Positions 2 to 42,736 of a stretch of DNA of 42,736 nt are shown in pieces. The translations under genes were made by a program, and so were the position numbers. A model generated the notes under the pieces. The model had not been told where the DNA came from and made no database searches. It saw nothing but the letters and a program-made list of their open reading frames with translations. The first letter of the stretch is position 1; every line of letters begins with the position of its first letter. Origin of the DNA: a virus; the UHGV virus genome UHGV-0389216; one strand, written 5' to 3'.

Positions 2-169
2 AAGGCTGCCGTGGCAGGAATTAGTGGCAAAGTGACAGAGGTTAACCAGCAAAATACCTACCACATTTACGGTGGCGGAGATCCGCACGCTGTCGGTAAT
101 GAGGTTGCACGTCGGCAACAGTCTGCAAATGCTCAGGTCATGCGAAGTAATCAGGTGAGGGTGGGTTAG
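2..169 (+). CDS. 3' end of an upstream tail-module gene (partial, start lies outside window)
   Basis: Frame is open from the window edge to TAG at 167-169, and the stop overlaps the GTG start of the next ORF (TAGTG coupling). No start codon in window. Confidence 0.35.
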   Translation, partial: KAAVAGISGKVTEVNQQNTYHIYGGGDPHAVGNEVARRQQSANAQVMRSNQVRVG

Positions 170-756
170 TGGATATTCTCTCTACACTTTTTCATCAGCA
201 GAGCAGAAAAATAGGAATGATTGTTCCCAGTGTTGTTATTTCAGAGAAGCATACAGATATGCTTGAAATAACAGAGCATCCGGTAGAGGTCGGGGCTGCT
301 GTCGCTGATCATGCCTATAAAAAACCGTCAGAAGTGGTGATGGAGGTTGGTTTCGCCGGTGGCGGCGCATTGCTGGATTTTGCCAGTAACCTGACGGCTA
401 CCAGCCTGCTCGGCCTGAGTCCTCAGCAGACGTATCAGGAGCTACTGGATCTGCAGGAAAGCCGTATCCCCTTCGATGTGGTAACCGGTAAACGGCTGTA
501 CAGCAACATGTTGATCCGGGCGCTGGAAGTGACGACGGACAAGACAACCGAAAACGTCCTGTCCGCCGTCCTCACCCTGAGGGAGGTCCTTATCTCCCGG
601 ACACAGCAGATCACCGTCGCTGATAAAACCAACATGAAGGAAGGGGCCAGCACGTCGGCGGTACAGAACAGCGGCAACAAAACCACAAAGCCTCCAGATA
701 CTTCACTGCTGAAAAGCATCACGGGTAACGTGGTGTCATTACTGGGAGGCGGATAA
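169..756 (+). CDS. phage tail/baseplate-module protein, function unknown
   Basis: 195-aa ORF with GTG start preceded by GAGGGTGGG; translationally coupled to flanking ORFs in a tail gene block. Confidence 0.45.
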   Translation: MDILSTLFHQQSRKIGMIVPSVVISEKHTDMLEITEHPVEVGAAVADHAYKKPSEVVMEVGFAGGGALLDFASNLTATSLLGLSPQQTYQELLDLQESRIPFDVVTGKRLYSNMLIRALEVTTDKTTENVLSAVLTLREVLISRTQQITVADKTNMKEGASTSAVQNSGNKTTKPPDTSLLKSITGNVVSLLGGG

Positions 757-1058
757 TGACAATTCAGGAAATTCCGCTGACAGCGGACAACCAGCAGTTC
801 AGCATCGTCCTGGGTGGTGTCACCTGGCGGATTAGCATCATATGGCGCGATCCTTACTGGATTATGGACCTGCAGAACGACAGAGGGGAGCCGGTAATCT
901 CCGGTATACCTCTCGTCACTGGCGCTGACCTGCTGGCGCAGTACGCCTGTATGGGACTTGGTTTTAAGCTGTTGGTGGTCTGCGATGACAACACACAGGA
1001 TTATCCCACGAAAACTGACCTGGGCGGGCGCAGTCATTTACTGGTATCAACGGAGTAA
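756..1058 (+). CDS. small tail/baseplate-module protein
   Basis: 100-aa ORF; ATG at 756 overlaps previous stop (TAATG); position in baseplate block. Confidence 0.4.
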   Translation: MTIQEIPLTADNQQFSIVLGGVTWRISIIWRDPYWIMDLQNDRGEPVISGIPLVTGADLLAQYACMGLGFKLLVVCDDNTQDYPTKTDLGGRSHLLVSTE

Positions 1059-1060
1059 GC

Positions 1061-2122
1061 ATGACACAGAACTGGATGAGACATTTCGAGCTGCAGCTTG
1101 TGGACGGGAACGGTCAGGGAATTGAGCTAAGTGATTTCAAAGTCACCTTTACGATCGACTGGTTCAACATCAGCAGCGCGTCCCGGGTAGGGACTATCAA
1201 AATTTATAACCTCTCGGCAGATACTGTGAACCGAATTACCGGGCAGGAGTTTTCGAAAGTGCGTCTGATTGCGGGTTACGATGGTATCGCGCCGGAGGTG
1301 TCGGCAAGCGATGTCGGGACCGTGCGGGAGGTTGATGCGGCGGACGTGGGCCAGAGTGATGGCCGCAACTACGGACTGATTTTCAGCGGTGAAATTCGCT
1401 ACTCGGTCACAGGAAAAGACAGCCCGGTTGATTCCTACGTCCTGATTCAGGCAGCCGATACAGATCTGGCTTTTGCCACCAGCATAACTTCGCAGACGCT
1501 GGCGGCCGGTTATACGGTCGCAGACGTGAATCGCGCGCTGATGAAAGACTTCGAGGCCAAAGGCGCGACTGAAGGTCTGACGCCTGAAATGCCTGCTACC
1601 GTTTTCCCCCGGGGCCGGGTGCTATTCGGCATGACACGTCATCTTATGGATAACGTGGCCGGACAATGTGGCGCAACATGGCAGTTCGTGGATGGTCAGC
1701 GCCAGATGGTGGCGAATAACGAATATGTTCACGACGCGATTGTGCTCAGCAGTGCCACGGGGCTTATCGGTATGCCACAGCAGACTATCGGCAACGGCGT
1801 AAACGTCCGCGCGCTGATTAACCCGAACATCCGGGTTAACGGGCTCATTCAGCTGGATCAGGCTTCAGTATTCCGCACCGCGCTGTCGAACAACGATATC
1901 GCGATGGCCGGCGGGCAGATCACCGACCAGAACACGGACGGAAATATCACGCTCAGCGGCACCACATCGCAGCCTGCCAGCATCGCAACGGATGGCGTTT
2001 ATATTGTGCGCGGGATTATGTACAGTGGCGATACAAGGGGCCAGGCGTGGTACATGGATATGATGTGCGAAGCGCGTGGCGCGGCGGATCTGTATACGCA
2101 ATCGGCTTTGCAAAGGGGATGA
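1061..2122 (+). CDS. baseplate hub-like tail protein (putative)
   Basis: 353-aa ORF, ATG 1061 with GGAG upstream; size and position upstream of spike/J-like genes. Assignment is positional. Confidence 0.45.
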   Translation: MTQNWMRHFELQLVDGNGQGIELSDFKVTFTIDWFNISSASRVGTIKIYNLSADTVNRITGQEFSKVRLIAGYDGIAPEVSASDVGTVREVDAADVGQSDGRNYGLIFSGEIRYSVTGKDSPVDSYVLIQAADTDLAFATSITSQTLAAGYTVADVNRALMKDFEAKGATEGLTPEMPATVFPRGRVLFGMTRHLMDNVAGQCGATWQFVDGQRQMVANNEYVHDAIVLSSATGLIGMPQQTIGNGVNVRALINPNIRVNGLIQLDQASVFRTALSNNDIAMAGGQITDQNTDGNITLSGTTSQPASIATDGVYIVRGIMYSGDTRGQAWYMDMMCEARGAADLYTQSALQRG

Positions 2123-2125
2123 GCA

Positions 2126-2467
2126 ATGAGGGGTATTATTTTTCTGTTAGCTGTCTTTTCTGCGTGCAGCGCGTGGGCGGATGGCTTCACGGTTAAATGC
2201 GGTGGCTACACTATGGTTGCAAACCAGGGCGAGTTATCGACAATCAACGGTGAAAGAGTTACCTCTCAAAAAATCACCGAACTGGGTACCAATGGTTTGA
2301 AAGTAGACATGGGGCTTATGCCTGCCAAAGACGGTAACAACTACGGCTTTGAATACATTCGTCGCCCTGGTACCGAAACGCGATTCCTGAATGTCCAACT
2401 GCTGCAGAACAGCATGGATGCGCCGAAAATCATCGGTTCCTTTCCATGCAAAAAGATTGTTGATTAA
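2126..2467 (+). CDS. small secreted protein / possible lipoprotein (moron)
   Basis: 113 aa; N-terminal signal peptide MRGIIFLLAVFSACSAW with lipobox-like FSAC; inserted between baseplate genes. Confidence 0.5.
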   Translation: MRGIIFLLAVFSACSAWADGFTVKCGGYTMVANQGELSTINGERVTSQKITELGTNGLKVDMGLMPAKDGNNYGFEYIRRPGTETRFLNVQLLQNSMDAPKIIGSFPCKKIVD

Positions 2468-2520
2468 TCACTCGTAATTATAATGTGATACTTCTACTTT
2501 CACGATAAGGAATTTGTCGC

Positions 2521-2760
2521 ATGTTCGGATTTGATAAATTAATAACTCCAAAAATCATCAACGTTCTGTATGGCATCACAATGTTACTTCTGGTTGTTGC
2601 CGCCATTATAACGTTTGTTAATGGGAAGGCTGCTGGCGCTTTAGTGCTTTTGTTATGTGCTGTATTTTGCCGAATATTCTTTGAGTGCATCATGGTTTCA
2701 TTTAAAAACAATGAGTATCTTCGCCGAATAGCTGAAGCGTTAGAAGCAAACAAGCAGTAA
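2521..2760 (+). CDS. small two-helix membrane protein (moron)
   Basis: 79 aa with two hydrophobic segments (ITMLLLVVAAIITFV; ALVLLLCAVFCRIFF); AT-rich upstream region; followed by terminator. Confidence 0.45.
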   Translation: MFGFDKLITPKIINVLYGITMLLLVVAAIITFVNGKAAGALVLLLCAVFCRIFFECIMVSFKNNEYLRRIAEALEANKQ

Positions 2761-2778
2761 TGAAACTTCAATAATGAA

Positions 2779-2800
2779 CCCGCCACCCGGCGGGTTTTTT
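2779..2800 (+). terminator. rho-independent terminator
   Basis: CCCGCC-ACCC-GGCGGG hairpin followed by TTTTTT. Confidence 0.7.
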
Positions 2801-2819
2801 GCTTTCTGGAGCCTACTAA

Positions 2820-3572
2820 ATGGCAGTATCTGACCAGACCCGCAGCGGCGACCTTGCTGAAACATTCAAATCTGAACGGGAAACAACAAAGAACCAGATC
2901 CGTGTCGCCTTGCCTGGCATTGTTCAGTCATTCGATCCCGACGCGGTGACGGCGGTTGTGCAGCCAGCTATCCGTTCGGTTGAAAAGGATAACGACGGTA
3001 ACCGCATTACCAAAAATTACCCGTTGCTGGTGGATGTGCCAGTGGTATTTCCGCGCGGCGGAGGCTGTACGTTGACTTTTCCGGTTAAAGCCGGGGATGA
3101 GTGTCTTGTCGTTTTTGCCGATCGTTGTATTGATTTCTGGTGGCAGAGCGGTGGGATACAGGAGCCGGTCGATGACAGAATGCATGATTTATCGGATGCG
3201 TTTTGTATTGTCGGTCCCCAGTCGCAGGCGAGGAAGATTAGCGGTATTAATACCAGTGCTACACAGTTGCGTAGTGACGACGGCAGCACCTATTTTGAGC
3301 TTAATCCTGATACCAGGAAAATTAAAATTGTCGCTCCGGGGGGCCTTGATGTGGTTGCCCCTCTGGCTGATTTTTCTGAGAAAGTAACCATTCATGGCCT
3401 GTTAACCTGGATGGGGGGCATGGTGGGGTCTGTTGTTTCTGGTGTAGCTTCAAAAATCACTGGTGCTGTTGAGTTTTTGGGTAGCGTGAAGGCTAACGGC
3501 AAGCCAATCGATGATACGCACACTCATGGCGGTGTTCAGCGCGGTGGAAGCAATACCGATGGGGTAAACTGA
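2820..3572 (+). CDS. baseplate assembly/spike protein (gpV-like, putative)
   Basis: 250-aa ORF, ATG 2820 after CTGGAG; position before small baseplate protein and J-like gene; Gly-rich C-terminus. Confidence 0.5.
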   Translation: MAVSDQTRSGDLAETFKSERETTKNQIRVALPGIVQSFDPDAVTAVVQPAIRSVEKDNDGNRITKNYPLLVDVPVVFPRGGGCTLTFPVKAGDECLVVFADRCIDFWWQSGGIQEPVDDRMHDLSDAFCIVGPQSQARKISGINTSATQLRSDDGSTYFELNPDTRKIKIVAPGGLDVVAPLADFSEKVTIHGLLTWMGGMVGSVVSGVASKITGAVEFLGSVKANGKPIDDTHTHGGVQRGGSNTDGVN

Positions 3573-3925
3573 TGCGATACAGACGTGAAGACGCCGATGG
3601 CGATTACACCTTTGGCAGCGGTGATGACACCTGGCTGATTAACTCACCGGAGGCCGTGGCGCAGGCGGTAAAAACGCGATTCGAATTGTGGTATGGGCAA
3701 TGGTTTCTCGACACCACCGAAGGGACTCCGTGGATCCAGTCCGTGCTCGGTAAGCAGAAGCCGGAAACCTACAACCTGGCGATCCGTAAGCGCATCCTCG
3801 AAACGCAGGGCGTTAAATCAATCCTCTCTTTCAATACGACGGTGGATACCACGACCCGACGTGTCATGTTTTCCGCTGAAATCGACACTCTTTATGGAAT
3901 AACGACTGTTACATCGGAGGCGTAA
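3572..3925 (+). CDS. small baseplate protein (gpW/gp25-like, putative)
   Basis: 117 aa; start overlaps previous stop (TGATG); conserved V-W-J-I type order. Confidence 0.45.
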   Translation: MRYRREDADGDYTFGSGDDTWLINSPEAVAQAVKTRFELWYGQWFLDTTEGTPWIQSVLGKQKPETYNLAIRKRILETQGVKSILSFNTTVDTTTRRVMFSAEIDTLYGITTVTSEA

Positions 3926-5124
3926 TGGCTCTGAACCTTGATTCTCTCGGTTTATCTGCAAAGGTAACCGCGGAGGGGATCAGTGCGCCTGATTATCAGA
4001 CGATACTCAGCACCCTGATTAGCTATTTTCAGCAGATTTATGGCAGTGATGCCTACCTCGAACCGGACAGCAAAGACGGCCAGATGGTGGCTCTGATGGC
4101 GCTGGCGATTCATGATGCCAATAATATGGCGATAACTGTCTACAACTGTTTTTCACCGGCAACCGGCTATGGGGCCGCACTGACCAGTAACGTGAAAATA
4201 AATGGTATTTCACGTAAAGGCGCGACGAATTCTACGGTTGATTTGCTTCTTACAGGAACTGCCGGAACAACCATCATTAATGGCAGCGTGAAAGACAGTA
4301 ATAATGTGATATGGCGTTTGCCTGTTTCAGTGGTGGTCGGCGTGGATGGTACAGTGATGGTGACCGCAACATGTTCCGTCAGTGGTGCAGTGGCGGCGCT
4401 GGCTGGAACAATCACTGAAATTAATACGCCAACCCGTGGCTGGGTTTCGGTAACTAATCCTGCTGCGGCTACTGTTGGCTCTCCGGCAGAAACTGATGCT
4501 GAGTTACGTATCCGCCAGTCGCAAAGTGTTGCGTTGCCATCAATAACCCCATTTGAAGCACTGGATGGTGCTGTTTCTAATGTTGTCGGTGTAACCCGCC
4601 ACAAACTCTATGAAAACGATACTGGTTCGGAGGACGGTAACGGGTTACCGCCACACTCTGTTGCTGTAATTGTGGATGGTGGTGATGTGACGGATATTGC
4701 TCAGGCTATCAGAGGGAATAAAGGCCAGGGGACAGCCACTCACGGTACAACATCCGTTACGGTTCCGGATAAATACGGCAATCCCCATGTAATCAAATTC
4801 TCGCGTTCCAGTGATGTGCCTGTTTATGCCCGGATTAAATTAAAAGTTTTTACGGGTTATACCTCACAGATAGGGCAGCAGATCCAGCAGGCTATTTCCG
4901 ACTATATCAATAGTCTGATGATTGGTGATTCGGTCCTTTTAAGTCGCATTTACTCACCGGCGAATCTTGGCGTGGTGAGTGGCGGGAATGCACGCTATTA
5001 CGATATTCAGGAACTGACGATTGGTAAATCCCCGGGGGCTTTGTCGTCATCAAACATTGATATCAGATACAACGAATCTGCGTCCTGTACCCCGGAAAAT
5101 ATCGTTATAACGGTGGAGTCATGA
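3925..5124 (+). CDS. baseplate J-like protein
   Basis: 399 aa; ATG 3925 after GGAGG, overlaps previous stop; size and order typical of baseplate J. Confidence 0.55.
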   Translation: MALNLDSLGLSAKVTAEGISAPDYQTILSTLISYFQQIYGSDAYLEPDSKDGQMVALMALAIHDANNMAITVYNCFSPATGYGAALTSNVKINGISRKGATNSTVDLLLTGTAGTTIINGSVKDSNNVIWRLPVSVVVGVDGTVMVTATCSVSGAVAALAGTITEINTPTRGWVSVTNPAAATVGSPAETDAELRIRQSQSVALPSITPFEALDGAVSNVVGVTRHKLYENDTGSEDGNGLPPHSVAVIVDGGDVTDIAQAIRGNKGQGTATHGTTSVTVPDKYGNPHVIKFSRSSDVPVYARIKLKVFTGYTSQIGQQIQQAISDYINSLMIGDSVLLSRIYSPANLGVVSGGNARYYDIQELTIGKSPGALSSSNIDIRYNESASCTPENIVITVES

Positions 5125-5801
5125 GCAAATACACCGAACTAATCACGAACTACCACGCCACCAAACCTAAATTTCTTGCACATGTTGATCTGATGACCCG
5201 GCCGCTTATTGATGTTGCGGCTGCCACCAGAGGGCTGATTACTGCATTTGATATTGACTCTGCGGTTGGTGTGCAACTTGACATTCTGGGATTGTGGATC
5301 GGACGTAGCCGTGTTGTCAGCCAGCCTATCTCAGGTGTCTATTTCAGCTGGGATACCGACGGGCTTGGATATGATCAGGGTGTATGGCAGGGACCATACG
5401 ATCCTGATTTAGGATACATGTATCTCAGCGATGAAACTTATCGTGTCATTCTTAAAGCGAAGATTGCGATTAATAACTGGGACGGACGGAATGATTCGCT
5501 TCCGGCAATTCTTGACGCGGCAACAGCAGGATCCGGGCTGCGAATGCAGATAGTCGATAACCAGGACATGACGATATCGGTCTGGGTCTTTCCTGATACT
5601 GATATTTCAGATGTATCGCGTGAGTTAATTGCGGCAATTAAACAGGGGTATCTCACAGTAAAAGCCGCCGGGGTATGGGCGGGTGGCATTGAAACACCTT
5701 CTGTGGAAACCCCATCGGAAGGTTCAAAATTTTTTGGTTTTGATATGGATAACGAATTCATCAGTGGTTTTGATGTAGGGGCATGGGGAGTATTACTCTG
5801 A
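5121..5801 (+). CDS. baseplate/tail protein I-like
   Basis: 226 aa; ATGA overlap with J-like gene; precedes tail fibre gene. Confidence 0.45.
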   Translation: MSKYTELITNYHATKPKFLAHVDLMTRPLIDVAAATRGLITAFDIDSAVGVQLDILGLWIGRSRVVSQPISGVYFSWDTDGLGYDQGVWQGPYDPDLGYMYLSDETYRVILKAKIAINNWDGRNDSLPAILDAATAGSGLRMQIVDNQDMTISVWVFPDTDISDVSRELIAAIKQGYLTVKAAGVWAGGIETPSVETPSEGSKFFGFDMDNEFISGFDVGAWGVLL

Positions 5802-6868
5802 TGGCAAAAAATGACTTTAAAGCATTCGCAACGGGTAAAAATGCCAATGTTATGCCGCAGGAGGAATGGGAAGCGTTGCCTGCGCTTTTATCCGGATTTA
5901 CAGCAGGGAAAGCATCCAGTGCGCAGGTGAACAAAGCCATTCGACAGGCCAGCTTTATTACGGCAGCGCTTGCACAGTACACAGCTAATAAAAGTGGGCT
6001 GGATGTGCTTGATGATGGTGACCTGAACGGGTTTATCTCCAAAATGGAAGCGGCTTTGGGGAAGGATTTCCAGGCGCTTGACGCCACGCTCACTGCACTG
6101 GCAGGCCTTGCCACTGCGGCAGACAAACTTCCGTATTTTACGGGGAATGATACAGCCAGCCTGACAACCCTGACTAACGTTGGACGGAATATTCTGGATA
6201 AAGCAAGCACACAGGCGGTTATTCAATATCTTGGTCTGAGCGATGCAAGTGGATACGTTGGACGCTGGCTGAATACCCGGGTTTTCACCTCATCAGGTAC
6301 GTACACCCCGACGCCAGGAACAAAACGGATCAGGGTCACAATAACGGGCGGCGGTGGCGGAGGGGGCGGCTGCAAGGCTACATCCAATAATGAAACGTTT
6401 TTCGGTGCTGGCGGTGGGGCCGGTGGAACAATAATTTCAATAATGACCCCGACACAGAATAGTTATCCAGTCACTATCGGCGCAGGTGGGGCCGGTGGTG
6501 TTAGTGCAACGTACGGCATCAATGGCGGTAATAGCTTATTCGCATCGTTAATTGCTCCTGGTGGCGCAGGCGGCGGAAAGTCAGGAGTCACAAACACAAA
6601 TGGTGGTAACGGAGGTGTGCCGAGTACTGGCAATATCAATATCATTGGTGGATGTGGAGGCGACGGTCAGTCCGGAAATATCGGCGTCAGCGGTGAAGGC
6701 GGAACATCGTACTGGGGAGGTGGTGGACGCGCAGGCGCTGGCGGTGGCGTTAGCGGTAAGGCATATGGTTCAGGCGGAGGTGGTGCATACGATGCTGGTT
6801 ATAGCGGAACCAGTATGACGGGCGGGAAAGGCGCTTCAGGGATTTGTATTATCGAGGAGTTTGCATAA
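5801..6868 (+). CDS. tail fibre protein with glycine-rich C-terminal domain
   Basis: ATG at 5801 overlaps previous stop (TGATG). N-terminus MAKNDFKAF...; C-terminal half is GGxGG-rich (TGGGGGGGGC...GAGGAGG...GGNGG). Confidence 0.6.
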   Translation: MAKNDFKAFATGKNANVMPQEEWEALPALLSGFTAGKASSAQVNKAIRQASFITAALAQYTANKSGLDVLDDGDLNGFISKMEAALGKDFQALDATLTALAGLATAADKLPYFTGNDTASLTTLTNVGRNILDKASTQAVIQYLGLSDASGYVGRWLNTRVFTSSGTYTPTPGTKRIRVTITGGGGGGGGCKATSNNETFFGAGGGAGGTIISIMTPTQNSYPVTIGAGGAGGVSATYGINGGNSLFASLIAPGGAGGGKSGVTNTNGGNGGVPSTGNINIIGGCGGDGQSGNIGVSGEGGTSYWGGGGRAGAGGGVSGKAYGSGGGGAYDAGYSGTSMTGGKGASGICIIEEFA

Positions 6869-7284
6869 TGAATGCGTCATATGCAGTTATTGAAAATGGG
6901 ATGGTTGTGAATGTCATTGTCTGGGATGGCGAGGCTGAATTCACAGTGCCGGATAATCAGCAGCTCATTGATATTTCTGATATCAGTGAGCATCCCGGAA
7001 TCGGCTGGGCGTATTCAGACGGGGGATTTACTGCGCCGCTCCCTCCGGAACGTTCTCATGATGAACTGGTAGCTGACGCTGAACAGAAAAAACAGTCGTT
7101 GGTAGACGCAGCAATGGTCAATATCAGCGTGATTCAGTTAAAGCTGCAGGCCGGGCGCAAACTGACGCAAGAAGAAACTACCCGACTTAACGTTGTGCTG
7201 GATTATATCGACGCTGTGACGGCAACAGATACCAGCACTGCACCGGATATTGAGTGGCCGGATGAACCGTGCTTCGCTGAATAA
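6868..7284 (+). CDS. tail fibre assembly protein (Tfa-like)
   Basis: 138 aa from ATG 6868 (TAATG overlap with fibre gene); C-terminal ...DIEWPDEP resembles Tfa chaperones; last gene of tail block. Confidence 0.5.
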   Translation: MNASYAVIENGMVVNVIVWDGEAEFTVPDNQQLIDISDISEHPGIGWAYSDGGFTAPLPPERSHDELVADAEQKKQSLVDAAMVNISVIQLKLQAGRKLTQEETTRLNVVLDYIDAVTATDTSTAPDIEWPDEPCFAE

Positions 7285-38686: not shown

Positions 38687-39832
38687 ATGGCACAGGGCTT
38701 GCCTGTATCAAACGTTGTTAATGTTGATGTGATCATGTCGCCGCGTGCAGCATCAGGGCGAAATTTTGGTGCATTACTCATTCTCGGCCCGTCCACAATC
38801 ATTCCGGTAAGTGAGCGCATTCGCCGTTATTCTGCCGCGGAAGATATTGGAAAAGATTTTGGCGTGGAATCACCAGAATATAAGGCTGCGCAGGTGTTTT
38901 TCTCTCAATCACCGAAACCTCAGGAGGTTTTTGTTGGTCGTTGGGTGAAAACGAAGGGAGACAGCGAACAGGCCACGCCTGAGACGCTGGAGCAGGCTGT
39001 GAATGCCATGCTCGATTATACTTCATGGTATGGGCTGGGGATTGCAGACGATGCAGATATTCCGGATGCAGACTGGCTGAAAGTGGCTGCGGCGATCGAA
39101 TCCTCTTCTGTAAGCCGTATTCTGGCGATTACGACAAGCGATGAGAAATGCCTGCAGACTGCATCCAGCGATGATTTGGCATCAAAACTGAAAACCGCCG
39201 GATATTCACGCAGTTTTATTCAGTATTCATCGGGTAATAAATACGCTGCGTTATCTGCATTTGGCCGGGCATTCACGGTTAATTTCAATGGCAGTAATAC
39301 CGCGATTACGCTCAAGTTTAAGCAGGCGCCGGGCGTCGGGTATGAAACACTGACAGTCAGCCAGGCATCGGCACTTGATGCAAAAAACTGCAATGTATTC
39401 GTGTACTACCAGAATGATACGGCTATCCTCCAGCAGGGAGTGATGGCTAACGGCGATTTCTTTGATGAACGCCACGGCCTGGACTGGTTACAGAATTATG
39501 TGCAGACCAACCTCTATAACCTGCTTTATACCAGCACCACGAAAGTACCCCAGACTGAAGCCGGTATTACCAGACTGTTATCAAGTGTTGAAAAATCACT
39601 GGATCAGGCCGTTCAGAATGGACTGATTGCTCCGGGCGTATGGAACGGTGGCGACCTGGGTCAGTTGTCATCAGGTGACACGCTGCCCAAAGGTTATTAC
39701 GTATACGCCCAGCCACTGGATGAACAGGCACAATCAGAACGTGAAGCCCGTAAGGCTCCGGTGATTCAGGCTGCAATAAAACTTGCAGGCGCGGTTCATT
39801 ACGCTGACGTACAGATTAACGTTGTTCGCTAA
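38687..39832 (+). CDS. tail sheath protein (putative)
   Basis: 381 aa; first and largest of the sheath, tube, chaperone, tape-measure series. Confidence 0.55.
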
Positions 39833-39842
39833 GGGGAAGTGA

Positions 39843-40283
39843 ATGTCTACCTATTCTTTTATGGATGTCACTGCGACGCTGACCGGGCCGACCGGTTCGA
39901 TTGACCTCGGGTACGGTTCGGCAAGTTCTGAAGAGGGGATTGTGGTTGCGATGGGCGGTCCTAAAAACACCATGACCATCGGTGCTGATGGCGAAGTGAT
40001 GCACAGTCTCCATGCAGATAAAAGCGGGACGATTACCGTTAACCTTCTGAAGACATCACCGACAAATAAAAAATTGTCGCTGGCGTATAACGCACAGAGC
40101 CAGTCTTCTGCCACATGGGGGAATAACGTTATCGTGATCCGCAACAAGGTCAGCGGCGACATCATCACGGCACGCAGTGTTGCGTTCCAGAAACAACCGG
40201 ATAACGCCAACGCTAAAACCGGTAATACGATGCCGTGGGTGTTTGACTGCGGCAAGATTGACCAGGTTCTCGGGGAGTTTTAA
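39843..40283 (+). CDS. tail tube protein (putative)
   Basis: 146 aa; GGGGAAG upstream; between sheath-like gene and chaperone. Confidence 0.55.
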   Translation: MSTYSFMDVTATLTGPTGSIDLGYGSASSEEGIVVAMGGPKNTMTIGADGEVMHSLHADKSGTITVNLLKTSPTNKKLSLAYNAQSQSSATWGNNVIVIRNKVSGDIITARSVAFQKQPDNANAKTGNTMPWVFDCGKIDQVLGEF

Positions 40284-40286
40284 TAC

Positions 40287-40739
40287 ATGGAGTTCGAAAT
40301 CAAAGGCGTGAAATATCGCGTGGCAAAACTCAGCGTTTTTGACCAACTGAAAGTGACCCGCAAACTTCTGCCGGTGCTGGCAGGAATGATGTCAGATTTC
40401 GGGAGCATTCGCTCCCGTTTGCCTGCTGATGGCAAAATCGACACCGTGAAATTCGAGCAGTTAAAACCGGTGTTTGAAACCATGCTCCCGCGTATCGCTG
40501 AGGAACTGTCTTCCCTGACCGAAGATGACACCAGTGCGATTATTCATCCCTGTCTTGCGGTGGTATCGCGGCGTCATATGGACGGATGGGTTCCGGTATT
40601 TACCCAGGGCGAACTGATGTTTGATGATATTGACTTGCTGGTCATGCTGCAGCTGGTGGCGCGGGTGGTCGCCGATTCGCTGGGAAATTTTTTGCCTACA
40701 CCCCTTACCAGCACGACGCAGAGCCTGCAACAGGGCTGA
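40287..40739 (+). CDS. tail assembly chaperone (with candidate -1 frameshift extension to 40927)
   Basis: 150 aa immediately upstream of tape measure; slippery run GGGAAATTTTTTG near 3' end; -1 frame open from 40682 to TGA 40925-40927. Confidence 0.5.
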   Translation: MEFEIKGVKYRVAKLSVFDQLKVTRKLLPVLAGMMSDFGSIRSRLPADGKIDTVKFEQLKPVFETMLPRIAEELSSLTEDDTSAIIHPCLAVVSRRHMDGWVPVFTQGELMFDDIDLLVMLQLVARVVADSLGNFLPTPLTSTTQSLQQG

Positions 40740-40916
40740 CGTTTAACAGCCTGCCGGACGGGCTGTCCTACCTTCTCAATCCGGTTGACGCCGGGTTAAT
40801 TCCTTATACAGCACTTAAAGATGGCTCTGTCGATTTGTACGATATTGCTCTTTTGAATGACCATCTGGCGGTAAAAGCGGATAACCAGCGGCGCATTGAG
40901 AAATGGAGAGAGGATA

Positions 40917-42736
40917 ATGAACGCTGAAACTATTAAAGATTTCCTCGTCTCGCTTGGCTTCAGTGTGGATGATGCAGGAGCGAAAAAGTTCGGTTCTGTC
41001 CTCGCCGGTACAACTGCAAATGTCATCAAAATGGGGCTGGCCGTTGAAGGAGCCGCGCTGTCCGTGGTGGCCTTCACGGCTAAGATCGCCTCCGGTCTGG
41101 ATAATCTTTACTGGGCGTCACAGCGCACTGGAGCGACAGTCCAGGGAATTCAGTCTATTGGCTATGCGGTTTCGCAGGTTGGCGGCAGCGTGGACGCTGC
41201 GCGATCTTCTCTGGAAAGCCTCTCCCGGTTTATTCGTAATAATCCCGGTGCAGAGGGATTTCTGAATCGCCTGGGGGTACAGACACGGGATGCCAGCGGT
41301 AACATGCGTGACATGGCCGCTATTTTTACAGGTGTAGGCCAGAAGCTCAGCGGCATGCCGTATTACCGGGCTAACCAGTATGCGCAGATGCTGGGCATTG
41401 ACGAAAATACCCTTATGGCGATGCGTCGGGGTGTGGGTGGTTTCTCCGGGCAGTACAGCGCAATGGCGAAAGCTATCGGCTTCAATGCTGACGAGGCGGC
41501 CAGAAGCTCCAACAAATTTATGACCTCCCTGCGTGAGTTTAGCGCGATGGCAGGCATGGCCCGTGACAAAATCGGCTCTAATCTTGCGGGTGGGCTTGCG
41601 GGTTCGCTGGACACCCTGCGCCGCCATATCCTGGACAACTTCCCTCGTATCGAGCTGACCCTGACGAAAGCCATAAAAGGCATTCTGGCGCTCGGGGATA
41701 TTATCGGGCGGCTGTTCTTCAGACTGATTGAAGGAACATCAGGTCTCATCACCTGGTGGCAATCGCTGGATAAGCAAACGCGGCAGTTGATCTCGCTGTT
41801 TGGCGCACTGACGATTGCGCTGCGCATTCTGAACAGTACGTTCTGGATGTCGCCGATTGGCCTTATTACTGCGCTGGCGGCGGGGATTGCCCTTCTGTGG
41901 GAGGACTATCAGACCTGGAAGGAAGGCGGCGACAGCCTGATTGACTGGGGCAAGTGGAAACCGGAGGTCGATGCCGCGTTGAAGATGGTTCGTGACCTTA
42001 AAACAACCGTTAACGACCTGGCGAAAGCGCTGGCGAAACTGCTCAATATTGACCCCAAATCATGGTCCCTGAAGTGGGATTTCAGCAACTTCATCGACCA
42101 GATGGGCGAATTCAGCAAAATGCTGAACATGATCGCCGACCTGCTCAACGCTATCAAAGATGGCCGCTGGGCTGATGCCGTCAGCATCAGCAAACAGATA
42201 CTTAATCAGGGCAGTGAAAATCCGTCAGCGATGCCGATGGTTACAGACAGCGCTAACAGTACTGCCGACTGGATTAAAGAGCACTGGGGATTCGATCCTC
42301 GCAGCGTGGGCCGGACGGTACGCGGCTGGTTTGGTGATGATGAGCCGGAACAATATGCACAGGCTACGAAACGAGGAGAACGGAATAACAATCCGGGAAA
42401 CCTTAATTTTGCTGGTCAGGCAGGGGCTTCTCTTGAACGCCCGGGCGGGCGATTTGCCAGATTTGAAACTGCTTTTGATGGATTACGGGCTCTTGCTCGT
42501 CAGTTAATGCTGTACGCCGGACGGGGAATAAACAGTGTGGAGAAAATTATCTCTACCTGGGCACCTGCGTCTGATAATAACAACACAACTGCGTATATCA
42601 GGGCTGTATCGCAACGACTGGGAGTGGATCCCCGGGCTGCCCTGAATATGAGCGATCCGCAAACCATGTCAGCATTGATGAGCAGCATTATCCAGCATGA
42701 AAATGGAAGAAATATCTATTCCCGAGAGCTGATTAA
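40917..42736 (+). CDS. tail tape measure protein (partial, continues beyond window)
   Basis: ATG 40917 preceded by GGAGAGAGGA; 606 codons open to window end; Ala/Gly-rich helical N-terminus with hydrophobic segments. Not in ORF track because no stop in window. Confidence 0.7.
   Translation, partial: MNAETIKDFLVSLGFSVDDAGAKKFGSVLAGTTANVIKMGLAVEGAALSVVAFTAKIASGLDNLYWASQRTGATVQGIQSIGYAVSQVGGSVDAARSSLESLSRFIRNNPGAEGFLNRLGVQTRDASGNMRDMAAIFTGVGQKLSGMPYYRANQYAQMLGIDENTLMAMRRGVGGFSGQYSAMAKAIGFNADEAARSSNKFMTSLREFSAMAGMARDKIGSNLAGGLAGSLDTLRRHILDNFPRIELTLTKAIKGILALGDIIGRLFFRLIEGTSGLITWWQSLDKQTRQLISLFGALTIALRILNSTFWMSPIGLITALAAGIALLWEDYQTWKEGGDSLIDWGKWKPEVDAALKMVRDLKTTVNDLAKALAKLLNIDPKSWSLKWDFSNFIDQMGEFSKMLNMIADLLNAIKDGRWADAVSISKQILNQGSENPSAMPMVTDSANSTADWIKEHWGFDPRSVGRTVRGWFGDDEPEQYAQATKRGERNNNPGNLNFAGQAGASLERPGGRFARFETAFDGLRALARQLMLYAGRGINSVEKIISTWAPASDNNNTTAYIRAVSQRLGVDPRAALNMSDPQTMSALMSSIIQHENGRNIYSRELI

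What the first reader, a model, noticed from the sequence alone, without database searches (positions are those of the whole stretch)
40680..40927. Candidate programmed -1 frameshift in the tail assembly chaperone
Near the 3' end of the chaperone ORF lies the slippery run GGGAAATTTTTTG (40682-40694). The -1 frame is open from 40682 for 81 codons and terminates at TGA 40925-40927, overlapping the tape-measure start. A conserved -1 frameshift producing a G/GT-like extended chaperone just upstream of the tape measure is established for many tailed phages.
Basis: partly seen in the sequence, partly recalled or inferred. Interest (0 to 1): 0.45.

Follow-up and report, generated by a model that had tools for sequence, protein, structure and literature searches.

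The report
Tail chaperone programmed -1 frameshift site
The phage's tail-assembly chaperone gene carries a conserved slippery run where some ribosomes most likely slip back one base to make a longer second protein; this is a well-known phage trick, but public annotation of this phage group misses it or splits it into a separate gene.

Summary
In the zero frame of the 150-aa tail assembly chaperone (TAC, 40287-40739) the run reads CUG GGA AAU UUU UUG. It holds three overlapping in-register X_XXY_YYZ heptamers. The -1 frame is open to TGA 40925-40927 and overlaps the tape-measure ATG (40917).

- The -1 extension hits Pfam DUF6889 (E=1e-20).
- It has no conserved start codon.
- In 75 of 79 species-level relatives it runs 182-197 nt past the zero-frame stop, while the +1 frame closes.
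- Amino acids are conserved in the -1 frame from the first codon after the slip, with many synonymous codons.
- Synonymous variation collapses only at GGA-AAT-TTT-TTG.

The U6 run is the core, kept in 77 of 78 sequences. It holds A_AAU_UUU and U_UUU_UUG, the latter being the P2 E/E+E' heptamer. Two relatives have a -1-frame stop directly 5' of it. No conserved stimulatory RNA structure was found.

Distant lineages encode the same fusion in one frame, collinear across the junction. The predicted product is 213 aa.

Homologous frameshifts are already annotated in phages Mulock and Magia. RefSeq instead calls a 54-aa DUF6889 gene from a CTG. This is an ordinary new member of a known kind. Nothing was tested experimentally.

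The parts
40287..40739 (+). Tail assembly chaperone, zero-frame product (150 aa; the short, 'G-like' form)
40682..40694 (+). Slippery run G_GGA_AAU_UUU_UUG: three overlapping in-register heptamers (40682, 40685, 40688). The U6 run 40688-40693 is the conserved core.
   Evidence: Among 78 sequences, U_UUU_UUN is kept in 77, A_AAU_UUU in 72 and G_GGA_AAU in 66. Codon use at the site: GGA 70/75, AAT 71/71, TTT 74/74, TTG 69/70. This is the only sharp minimum of synonymous variation in the whole fused ORF.
40691..40927 (+). -1-frame extension translated after the slip (78 codons from 40691 if the slip is on A_AAU_UUU, 77 from 40694 if on U_UUU_UUG), ending at TGA 40925-40927. Predicted fusion is 213 aa: join(40287..40691,40691..40927) or join(40287..40694,40694..40927).
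   Evidence: The -1 frame is conserved at amino-acid level from the first codon after the slip: mean column identity 0.73, against 0.50 for the zero frame and 0.51 for +1. Consensus Arg at fused position 138 is 99% conserved with 6 different codons. Extension length is 76-79 codons in 74 of 75 sequences. In-frame homologues are collinear across the junction.
40802..40918 (+). DUF6889 domain within the -1 extension
   Evidence: Pfam PF21829 E=1.3e-20, residues 41-79 of the 81-aa -1 translation. PHROG 4364, unknown function. AF2 pLDDT 85-91 for fused residues 161-211, helical.
40917..42736 (+). Tape measure protein start (ATG 40917, SD-like GGAGAGAGGA 40905-40914). The ORF runs off the window end and continues in frame at 1-169 (662 aa in all).
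   Evidence: PHROG 2276 'tail length tape measure protein' E=9e-261. Joined translation gives 662 aa, the same length as in relatives.
39843..40283 (+). Tail tube protein gene immediately upstream (context)
   Evidence: Pfam PF11681 E=8.8e-61; the same Pfam accession is labelled Phage_Tube_PhiTE.
38687..39832 (+). Tail sheath gene (context; contractile tail)
   Evidence: Pfam DUF3383 E=2e-100. PHROG 205 'tail sheath' E=4e-135.
40663..40669 (+). SD-like GGGUGGU, 15 nt upstream of A_AAU_UUU and 18 nt upstream of U_UUU_UUG. A possible but unproven stimulator.
   Evidence: Sequence. The rare Arg codon CGG is used in 50 of 68 sequences and GTG in 68 of 75 at these codons. Synonymous variation is only mildly reduced there, 0.50-0.60 against a mean of 0.70. 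It is absent from the Acinetobacter relative. The role is inferred only.

Best explanation
This is a programmed -1 ribosomal frameshift site in the tail assembly chaperone gene of a SEN34-like temperate myovirus.

Most ribosomes read CUG GGA AAU UUU UUG in frame and stop at 40739, giving the 150-aa chaperone. A minority slip back one nucleotide on the U-rich run. This happens either with tRNA-Asn and tRNA-Phe on A_AAU_UUU, or with tRNA-Phe and tRNA-Leu on U_UUU_UUG. They then read the -1 frame to TGA 40925-40927. The result is a 213-aa protein made of the chaperone's first 135-136 residues plus a 77-78-residue extension that carries the DUF6889 domain. The junction reads ...SLGNF-FAYTPYQ... 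or ...SLGNFL-AYTPYQ....

Shown here:
- the site and both reading frames;
- their conservation in relatives;
- coding selection in the -1 frame starting at the slip;
- nucleotide-level selection on the slip codons;
- the lack of an independent start;
- the existence of the same fusion as a single ORF in distant lineages.

Inferred by analogy with lambda gpG/gpGT and P2 E/E+E':
- the slip is ribosomal and low-efficiency, which fixes the short-to-long ratio;
- the shared N-part binds the tape measure protein while the extension recruits the tube protein;
- neither product stays in the virion.

No conserved stimulatory RNA structure accompanies the site, as reported for P2.
For: (1) Gene order is sheath, tube, TAC, [-1 ORF], tape measure.

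(2) The -1 ORF encodes a Pfam domain, DUF6889, E=1.3e-20.

(3) In 75 of 79 species-level loci (TAC 37-86% identical) the -1 frame runs 182-197 nt beyond the zero-frame stop. The +1 frame usually closes within tens of nt. Among close relatives, 76 of 77 assessable copies are intact.

(4) The slip codons are frozen: GGA 70/75, AAT 71/71, TTT 74/74, TTG 69/70. Other Phe, Asn and Gly columns use their synonymous codons freely. Normalised synonymous entropy is 0.11-0.28 at codons 131-138, against a gene mean of 0.70, and this is the only such dip.

(5) -1-frame residues are conserved with many synonymous codons from the first codon after the slip. The zero-frame tail is no better conserved than the non-coding +1 frame.

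(6) There is no conserved ATG, GTG or TTG in the -1 ORF. The first one is scattered over alignment columns 147-204. Database gene calls for it vary from 43 to 78 aa.

(7) L152 and L147 have TGA or TAA in the -1 frame immediately 5' of the U6 run, so the shift must occur on or after it.

(8) More distant phages keep the arrangement with other slippery motifs at the homologous codon: A_AAU_UUU, G_GGA_AAU, G_GGU_UUU/U_UUU_UUC, U_UUU_UUU and C_CCU_UUU.

(9) In-frame TAC-DUF6889 proteins (for example Methylobacterium P0297, and P0211, P0271) align collinearly across the predicted junction and have no slippery sequence there.

(10) Homologous frameshift products are annotated in Klebsiella phage Mulock, which has the identical GGGAAATTTTTTG, and in Burkholderia phage Magia (PMC7883833).

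(11) P2 E/E+E' shifts at TTTTTTG without a downstream structure (PMC3091744).
Against: - There is no experimental evidence for the fusion protein in this phage or any close relative.
- No stimulatory element was found. RNAalifold on 29-42 diverse loci gives essentially no consensus structure, and Rfam gives nothing.
- In E. coli reporter work the U_UUG A-site tetramer is only 1.8-3.6-fold above background, and U_UUU is intermediate (PMC4066793). Efficiency may therefore be low, and the register is unresolved.
- One relative (L103, AAT ATT TTG) lacks the U6 run, and Burkholderia phage E192a has no canonical heptamer.
- Part of the T-run conservation could come from dual-coding constraint (zero-frame Phe-Leu, -1-frame Phe-Phe) rather than from slipperiness alone.
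Confidence: 0.88

Rival explanations
1. The -1 ORF is an independent small gene (the DUF6889 family protein as RefSeq annotates it), initiated on its own at CTG 40763 or at another non-canonical start, and not joined to the chaperone.
For: RefSeq/PGAP annotates a 54-aa 'DUF6889 family protein' at the equivalent of 40763-40927 in E. coli genomes. PHROG 4364 and many NCBI entries are stand-alone calls.
Against: - No ATG or GTG exists in the window's -1 ORF.
- No start codon is conserved across 75 sequences, and database calls have inconsistent lengths of 43-78 aa.
- Amino-acid conservation with synonymous variation extends upstream of 40763 right to the slip site: Arg138 99%, Pro140 97%, Pro157 100%.
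- The -1 frame is always open from the slip site.
- In-frame fusions in distant lineages are collinear across the junction.
Confidence: 0.04
2. The same fusion is produced by transcriptional slippage: RNA polymerase adds one U on the T6 run, giving an mRNA that is in frame, rather than by ribosomal slippage.
For: The core is a homopolymer (T6). A DNA variant with T7 (L166) encodes exactly the fused 213-aa ORF, which shows that a +1 U yields the product.
Against: - From general knowledge, productive slippage by bacterial RNA polymerase needs longer runs (about 9 or more A/T); six is short.
- Distant homologues keep the arrangement with non-homopolymeric heptamers, such as G_GGA_AAU in Bordetella IFTN9 and C_CCU_UUU in Magia (T4 only). 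These fit tandem tRNA re-pairing, not polymerase slippage.
- The third-position A of GGA is conserved in 70 of 75 sequences. That matters for P-site re-pairing on A_AAU, not for polymerase slippage.
Confidence: 0.05
3. The arrangement is a decayed gene: an ancestral single TAC-DUF6889 ORF broken by a 1-nt deletion, with the downstream part no longer expressed.
For: In-frame single-ORF versions exist in other lineages. A T7 variant restores one ORF.
Against: - The split arrangement, with the same U6 run and an intact extension of 76-79 codons, persists across about 75 species-level lineages and 337 of 5426 complete E. coli genomes.
- The extension shows purifying selection on the protein.
- The window is a complete genome of a phage group that has been isolated as virions (PMC5261728).
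Confidence: 0.02

Closest known systems
Klebsiella phage Mulock CPT_Mulock_014/015 and Burkholderia phage Magia CPT_Magia_015/016 ('tape measure chaperone' and its annotated frameshift product)
   Same: These are homologous genes (Phage_TAC_15 plus DUF6889) in the same tube-TAC-TMP position. Mulock has the identical GGGAAATTTTTTG and a -1 ORF that ends over the TMP start. [quoted passage not shown]
   Different: Those are bioinformatic annotations too, with no experimental proof. Magia uses C_CCU_UUU. The window's own clade (E. coli vB_EcoM-606R2-like phages, SEN34, YP3) leaves the region unannotated or 'hypothetical'.
Phage P2 E / E+E' frameshift
   Same: [quoted passage not shown] No downstream stimulatory structure (PMC3091744).
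   Different: Different protein sizes: P2 E is 91 aa and E+E' 142 aa, against 150 and 213 aa here. Pfam gives only Phage_TAC_15 and DUF6889 for the window proteins. Here the U6 run is preceded by a second in-register heptamer, A_AAU_UUU.
Phage lambda gpG / gpGT
   Same: This is the paradigm. A low-level -1 frameshift links two products whose ratio matters for tail assembly. The shared part binds the tape measure protein and the -1-encoded part binds the major tail subunit. Neither is in the virion (PMC5009743).
   Different: Lambda is a siphovirus and, from general knowledge, uses G_GGA_AAG. No sequence-family relationship to lambda G was seen. The binding roles are not tested for this family.
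In-frame TAC-DUF6889 genes of distant prophages (e.g. Methylobacterium sp. J-043 P0297; P0211; P0271)
   Same: The same two domains in the same order, collinear with the predicted fusion across the junction.
   Different: They are encoded as one ORF with no slippery sequence. At least two lineages also carry a separate short Phage_TAC_15-like gene nearby. There the short/long pair is made by two genes instead of by recoding.
dnaX / IS3-type -1 frameshift signals in E. coli
   Same: Tandem-slippage heptamer of the X_XXY_YYZ type.
   Different: Those rely on an upstream SD-like element and/or a downstream hairpin or pseudoknot. Here no conserved downstream structure was found, and the SD-like GGGUGGU is 15-18 nt upstream and not universally conserved.

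Membership tests
Conserved tailed-phage tail-assembly-chaperone -1 frameshift (Xu, Hendrix & Duda 2004 type; lambda G/GT, P2 E/E+E') | Two overlapping ORFs lie between the major tail/tube gene and the tape measure gene | tested here: met
   Tube 39843-40283, TAC 40287-40739, -1 ORF to 40927, TMP from 40917.
Conserved tailed-phage tail-assembly-chaperone -1 frameshift (Xu, Hendrix & Duda 2004 type; lambda G/GT, P2 E/E+E') | [quoted passage not shown] | tested here: met
   Three in-register heptamers at 40682, 40685 and 40688.
Conserved tailed-phage tail-assembly-chaperone -1 frameshift (Xu, Hendrix & Duda 2004 type; lambda G/GT, P2 E/E+E') | The downstream ORF lacks its own start codon and ribosome-binding site | tested here: met
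   No ATG or GTG in the window's -1 ORF. No conserved start in 75 sequences.
Conserved tailed-phage tail-assembly-chaperone -1 frameshift (Xu, Hendrix & Duda 2004 type; lambda G/GT, P2 E/E+E') | The arrangement and slip site are conserved in relatives despite sequence divergence, with coding selection in the shifted frame | tested here: met
Conserved tailed-phage tail-assembly-chaperone -1 frameshift (Xu, Hendrix & Duda 2004 type; lambda G/GT, P2 E/E+E') | Both the short and the frameshifted long product are made in a fixed ratio and are needed for tail assembly | not testable with these tools
   Requires protein detection and genetics. The only indirect support is that distant lineages carry separate short and long genes.
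P2 E/E+E'-type signal | U_UUU_UUG heptamer with no downstream stimulatory RNA structure | tested here: met
   The heptamer is at 40688-40694. The RNAalifold consensus is essentially empty (-0.38 kcal/mol, no covarying pairs). P2 properties are taken from PMC3091744.
P2 E/E+E'-type signal | Sequence homology to P2 gpE / gpE+E' | tested here: not met
   The Pfam scan returns only Phage_TAC_15 and DUF6889 for the two parts, and PHROGs returns 1688, 1613 and 4364. So it works like P2 E/E+E' but is not a member of that protein family. A direct pairwise comparison with P2 E was not run.
Pfam Phage_TAC_15 (PF21822) + DUF6889 (PF21829) | Scores above the curated gathering thresholds | tested here: met
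   108.5 bits against a cutoff of 22, and 73.3 bits against 23.9.
dnaX/IS3-type stimulated -1 frameshift | A conserved downstream hairpin or pseudoknot 5-9 nt after the heptamer | tested here: not met
   The only recurrent hairpin (40778-40797) lies about 85 nt downstream and shows no convincing covariation.
dnaX/IS3-type stimulated -1 frameshift | An upstream SD-like element 6-17 nt from the motif | tested here: inconclusive
   GGGUGGU at 40663-40669 is 15 nt from A_AAU_UUU and 18 nt from U_UUU_UUG. CGG/GTG codon preference and a mild dip in synonymous variation are seen there. The element is not conserved in distant relatives. A candidate 4-bp upstream hairpin is paired in only 66% of cells.

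The most novel reading that the evidence does not exclude
The site may be a compound, structure-independent signal in which two consecutive heptamers (A_AAU_UUU and U_UUU_UUG) are both under selection and both used. This would give two isoforms that differ at one residue (Phe or Leu at position 136) and an additive frameshift rate.

Separately, the family as a whole has switched repeatedly between recoding (with at least five different slippery motifs at one homologous codon) and a two-gene solution with separate short and long chaperone genes. That would make it a natural system for asking why phages fix the chaperone ratio by frameshifting.
Probability: 0.3. Interest if true: 0.4.

Novelty: new member of a known kind. 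Interest (0 to 1): 0.22.

Why it matters
Practically, it corrects annotation. In this widespread prophage group the 178-nt 'gap' between chaperone and tape measure is left empty, called 'hypothetical', called 'NTP pyrophosphohydrolase', or called a 54-aa DUF6889 protein from a CTG start. The group is present in 337 of 5426 complete E. coli genomes and includes the Brunovirus type phage SEN34. The gap is most likely the C-terminal part of a 213-aa frameshift product. This also gives DUF6889 a probable role as the 'T-like' extension of a tail assembly chaperone.

Biologically it is one more instance of a rule established in 2004, so it would not surprise a specialist. The family-wide picture has modest interest for the evolution of recoding: variable heptamers at one codon, plus lineages that use two genes instead.

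Tried and rejected
- First AF2 run, with an alignment lacking in-frame fusions: pLDDT 42, unusable. The second run, with in-frame homologues, was good: pLDDT 80, pTM 0.73.
- Foldseek against the PDB gave nothing significant.
- A PDB sequence search and NCBIfam gave nothing.
- Rfam found nothing in 40200-41100.
- RNAalifold downstream of the site showed no conserved structure.
- The upstream 4-bp hairpin 40658-40673 is paired in 66% of cells, with some apparent covariation at one pair. It is too weak to claim.
- The hairpin at 40778-40797 is recurrent but shows no covariation beyond shuffles, and it is too far downstream to stimulate the shift.
- A naive within-window scan for long -1 extensions mostly finds ordinary overlapping downstream genes, so it is not discriminating. 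Only the TAC combines in-register heptamers with a start-less -1 ORF.
- Papers on SEN34 and Mulock do not mention the frameshift, and no paper in the library mentions DUF6889.
- I first took U_UUU_UUG to be the sole site. The distant relatives and the conserved third-position A of GGA show that A_AAU_UUU / the U_UUU A-site tetramer cannot be excluded, so the register is left open.
Full report
**1. The observation**

The sequence at 40680-40694 is CTG GGA AAT TTT TTG in the frame of the ORF 40287-40739 (150 aa). GGGAAATTTTTTG therefore sits at 40682-40694, exactly as reported. It contains three overlapping heptamers in the X_XXY_YYZ register required for tandem -1 slippage: G_GGA_AAU (40682), A_AAU_UUU (40685) and U_UUU_UUG (40688).

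The -1 frame is open from 40634 to TGA 40925-40927. That is 97 codons, or 81 counted from 40682. It overlaps the next gene's ATG (40917) by 11 nt. The -1 ORF has no ATG or GTG, only two TTG codons far downstream.

From this sequence alone, an 81-codon open stretch has P of about 0.017, and in-register heptamers occur at about 0.35% of codons. This is suggestive, not decisive.

**2. What the genes are**

The upstream ORF is a tail assembly chaperone: Pfam Phage_TAC_15, E=4e-31, and PHROG 1688. It is preceded by a sheath gene (DUF3383, PHROG 205) and a tube gene (PF11681). It is followed by a tape measure protein with a lytic transglycosylase part (PHROG 2276).

The -1 translation hits Pfam DUF6889 (E=1.3e-20) and PHROG 4364, which has unknown function.

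The window is a complete, circularly permuted genome of about 42.7 kb. The tape measure ORF runs off the end and continues in frame at 1-169, giving 662 aa as in relatives. It is 97% identical over this region to E. coli phages vB_EcoM-606R2 and 611R5. It is related to Yersinia phage YP3 (85%), Salmonella phage SEN34 (Brunovirus, 77%) and Klebsiella phage Mulock (about 73%). The same region occurs in 337 of 5426 complete E. coli genomes.

**3. Comparative test of the frameshift**

I fetched 80 near-identical viral contigs and 80 species-level loci from Enterobacterales genomes, with TAC identity of 37-86%.

In 75 of 79 species-level loci the -1 frame runs 182-197 nt past the zero-frame stop, whereas the +1 frame usually closes within tens of nt. 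The exceptions are two broken or mis-anchored TACs, one interrupted extension, and one read-on.

In the close relatives the T6 run is always present, and 76 of 77 assessable extensions are intact. One has a 1-nt deletion.

In a codon alignment of 75 distinct fused ORFs, the slip codons are essentially invariant at synonymous positions:
- GGA 70/75
- AAT 71/71
- TTT 74/74
- TTG 69/70

Other Phe, Asn and Gly columns split their codons roughly evenly. Normalised synonymous entropy averages 0.70 over the ORF. Its only sharp minimum, 0.11-0.28, falls at codons 131-138, the slip site.

Immediately after the slip, the -1 frame is conserved as protein with free synonymous change. The consensus is A-R-T-P-R-Q-R-D. 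Arg138 is 99% conserved with six codons, Pro140 is 97% conserved, and further on Pro157, Gly180 and Trp207 are 100% conserved. Over the first ten dual-coded codons, mean column identity is 0.73 in the -1 frame, 0.50 in the zero frame and 0.51 in the non-coding +1 frame.

The extension length is 76-79 codons in 74 of 75 sequences, and its stop typically overlaps the tape-measure ATG.

**4. Against an independent gene**

RefSeq/PGAP calls a 54-aa 'DUF6889 family protein' from a CTG that corresponds to window 40763. Other database entries are 43-78 aa long and are named DUF6889 or 'NTP pyrophosphohydrolase'. There is no conserved canonical start: the first ATG, GTG or TTG is scattered across alignment columns 147-204. 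Protein-level conservation extends upstream of 40763 to the slip site.

A library-wide HMMER search found 1358 clusters at E<=0.001. It shows that ordinary TAC homologues stop matching the fusion at about residue 136-142, which is at the slip.

A handful of proteins of about 200 aa from distant lineages match straight through. These in-frame TAC-DUF6889 proteins align collinearly across the predicted junction, for example ...DSLARFLAYEP... and ...ASLARFFTYAP... against ...DSLGNF[F/L]AYTP.... They are real ORFs in prophage tail modules with no slippery sequence at the junction. In two lineages a separate short Phage_TAC_15-like gene sits nearby. This is Rosetta-stone evidence that the two parts function as one polypeptide, and that both a short and a long form are wanted.

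**5. Which heptamer**

Among 78 sequences, U_UUU_UUN is kept in 77, A_AAU_UUU in 72 and G_GGA_AAU in 66.

In four Erwinia/Kalamiella-type loci the Asn codon is replaced by GGT, GAT or AGT. The third base is still T, so only U_UUU_UUG remains. In L152 and L147 a -1-frame stop (TGA, TAA) lies immediately 5' of the U6 run, so the shift cannot occur upstream of it. G_GGA_AAU is thus dispensable, and the U6 run is the core.

A_AAU_UUU cannot be dismissed, for three reasons:
- The third-position A of the otherwise rare GGA codon is kept in 70 of 75 sequences.
- More distant phages retain a U_UUU tetramer at the homologous Phe codon with various P-site codons: Acinetobacter A_AAU_UUU with no U6, Magia C_CCU_UUU, Ralstonia G_GGU_UUU, Providencia U_UUU_UUU.
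- In E. coli reporter assays U_UUU is a better A-site motif than U_UUG (PMC4066793).

Part of the T-run conservation may also reflect dual coding. The two registers predict products that differ only at residue 136 (Phe or Leu). I leave this open.

**6. Stimulators**

No conserved downstream structure was found. RNAalifold on 29-42 diverse loci gives about -0.4 to -0.8 kcal/mol with no covarying pairs, and there is no Rfam hit. This matches what is reported for P2 E/E+E', which shifts at TTTTTTG without a structure (PMC3091744).

An SD-like GGGUGGU lies 15-18 nt upstream, with some codon preference (CGG, GTG) and a mild synonymous dip. It is not conserved in distant relatives. A 4-bp upstream hairpin is inconclusive.

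**7. Structure**

With in-frame homologues in the alignment, AF2 gives a confident model (pLDDT 80, pTM 0.73). It has three parts:
- an alpha/beta N-domain, residues 1-137, whose last helix (117-137) ends at the slip site;
- a low-confidence linker, residues 138-160;
- a helical C-terminal domain, residues 161-211.

**8. Mechanism and comparison**

The best-supported reading is a low-level programmed -1 ribosomal frameshift on A_AAU_UUU_UUG. It yields a 150-aa chaperone and a 213-aa chaperone-DUF6889 fusion.

Three points are inferred, not shown. They rest on analogy with lambda gpG/gpGT, where the 30:1 ratio is crucial, the G part binds the tape measure, the T part binds the tail-tube subunit, and neither is in the virion (PMC5009743):
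- the shared N-domain coats the tape measure protein;
- the extension recruits the tube protein;
- the frameshift rate sets the ratio.

In signal type it works like P2 E/E+E', but it is not a sequence-family member of P2 E or lambda G.

It is a true homologue of the 'tape measure chaperone' pairs annotated with a frameshift in Klebsiella phage Mulock (identical slippery run) and Burkholderia phage Magia. The Magia announcement explicitly reports a programmed frameshift (PMC7883833). The SEN34 and Mulock papers do not mention it, and no paper in the library mentions DUF6889.

**9. Verdict**

Its main value is in correcting annotation and giving DUF6889 a probable role. Rivals are unlikely: an independent gene about 0.04, transcriptional slippage on T6 about 0.05, a decayed gene about 0.02. 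Nothing here is experimental. A tagged-expression western blot, junction-peptide MS and a mutational reporter assay would settle both the existence and the register of the shift.

Noticed in passing
window 40917-42736 joined to 1-169: The window is a circularly permuted complete phage genome of about 42.7 kb. The tape measure ORF is cut by the record ends and reads through the junction for 662 aa, the same length as in relatives. The tail/baseplate genes at 169-7284 follow on from it.
   Followed up: partly
window 40763-40927; L165 1677-1841: RefSeq/PGAP annotates the -1 ORF as an independent 54-aa 'DUF6889 family protein' starting at a CTG. Older NCBI entries call it 'NTP pyrophosphohydrolase'. 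Called lengths vary from 43 to 78 aa. This is probably a systematic misannotation of the frameshift extension.
   Followed up: yes
L166 990-1010 (Logan SRR23924998): A 99%-identical copy has T7 instead of T6 (GGGAAATTTTTTTG), which gives a single in-frame 213-aa TAC-DUF6889 ORF (P0001, 16 member sequences). It could be a homopolymer sequencing error or a natural 'fusion-only' mutant.
   Followed up: partly
L173 1989-3130; L174; L176 37-597 and 3501-4100; L175 2501-3133: Distant prophages (for example Methylobacterium sp. J-043) encode TAC+DUF6889 as one in-frame gene with no slippery sequence. In two lineages they also carry a separate short Phage_TAC_15-like gene. This is a two-gene alternative to frameshifting. 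In L176 the fused gene lies downstream of the tape measure gene rather than upstream.
   Followed up: partly
window 40697-40720 (-1 frame): Directly after the slip, the window's clade reads AYTPYQHD where the 75-sequence consensus is ARTPRQRD. The Arg at fused position 138 is 99% conserved elsewhere with six codons. So three conserved arginines are replaced by Tyr, Tyr and His in this E. coli phage lineage.
   Followed up: no
window 40778-40797: A terminator-like GC-rich hairpin (AATCCGGT-TGAC-GCCGGGTT, followed by a weak T-rich tail) lies inside the extension, in the stretch that only frameshifted ribosomes translate. It recurs in about 76% of pair cells across 29 loci and coincides with a secondary dip in synonymous variation, but shows no covariation beyond shuffles.
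   Followed up: partly
L168, L169, L170, L171, L167, L172 (phage records): Homologous chaperones in Acinetobacter, Bordetella, Ralstonia, Providencia and Burkholderia phages keep the -1 extension but use different slippery motifs at the homologous codon. Burkholderia phage vB_E192a has no canonical heptamer at all (GGT TCT TTT ATC).
   Followed up: partly
L096, L163; phage record OM284015.1: Enterobacterial-type copies of this locus (70-78% identical TAC, 62% identical extension) appear in assemblies labelled Chryseobacterium sp. and Bacillus sp., and in 'Elizabethkingia phage EKP1'. The host labels look doubtful; contamination or mis-assignment is possible.
   Followed up: no
L103 1858-1911 (Salmonella enterica strain s1): This is the only species-level locus in which the U6 run is interrupted (AAT ATT TTG), although the -1 extension is still open. 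It either shifts on G_GGA_AAU or has lost the frameshift.
   Followed up: no
[not shown]
   Followed up: no
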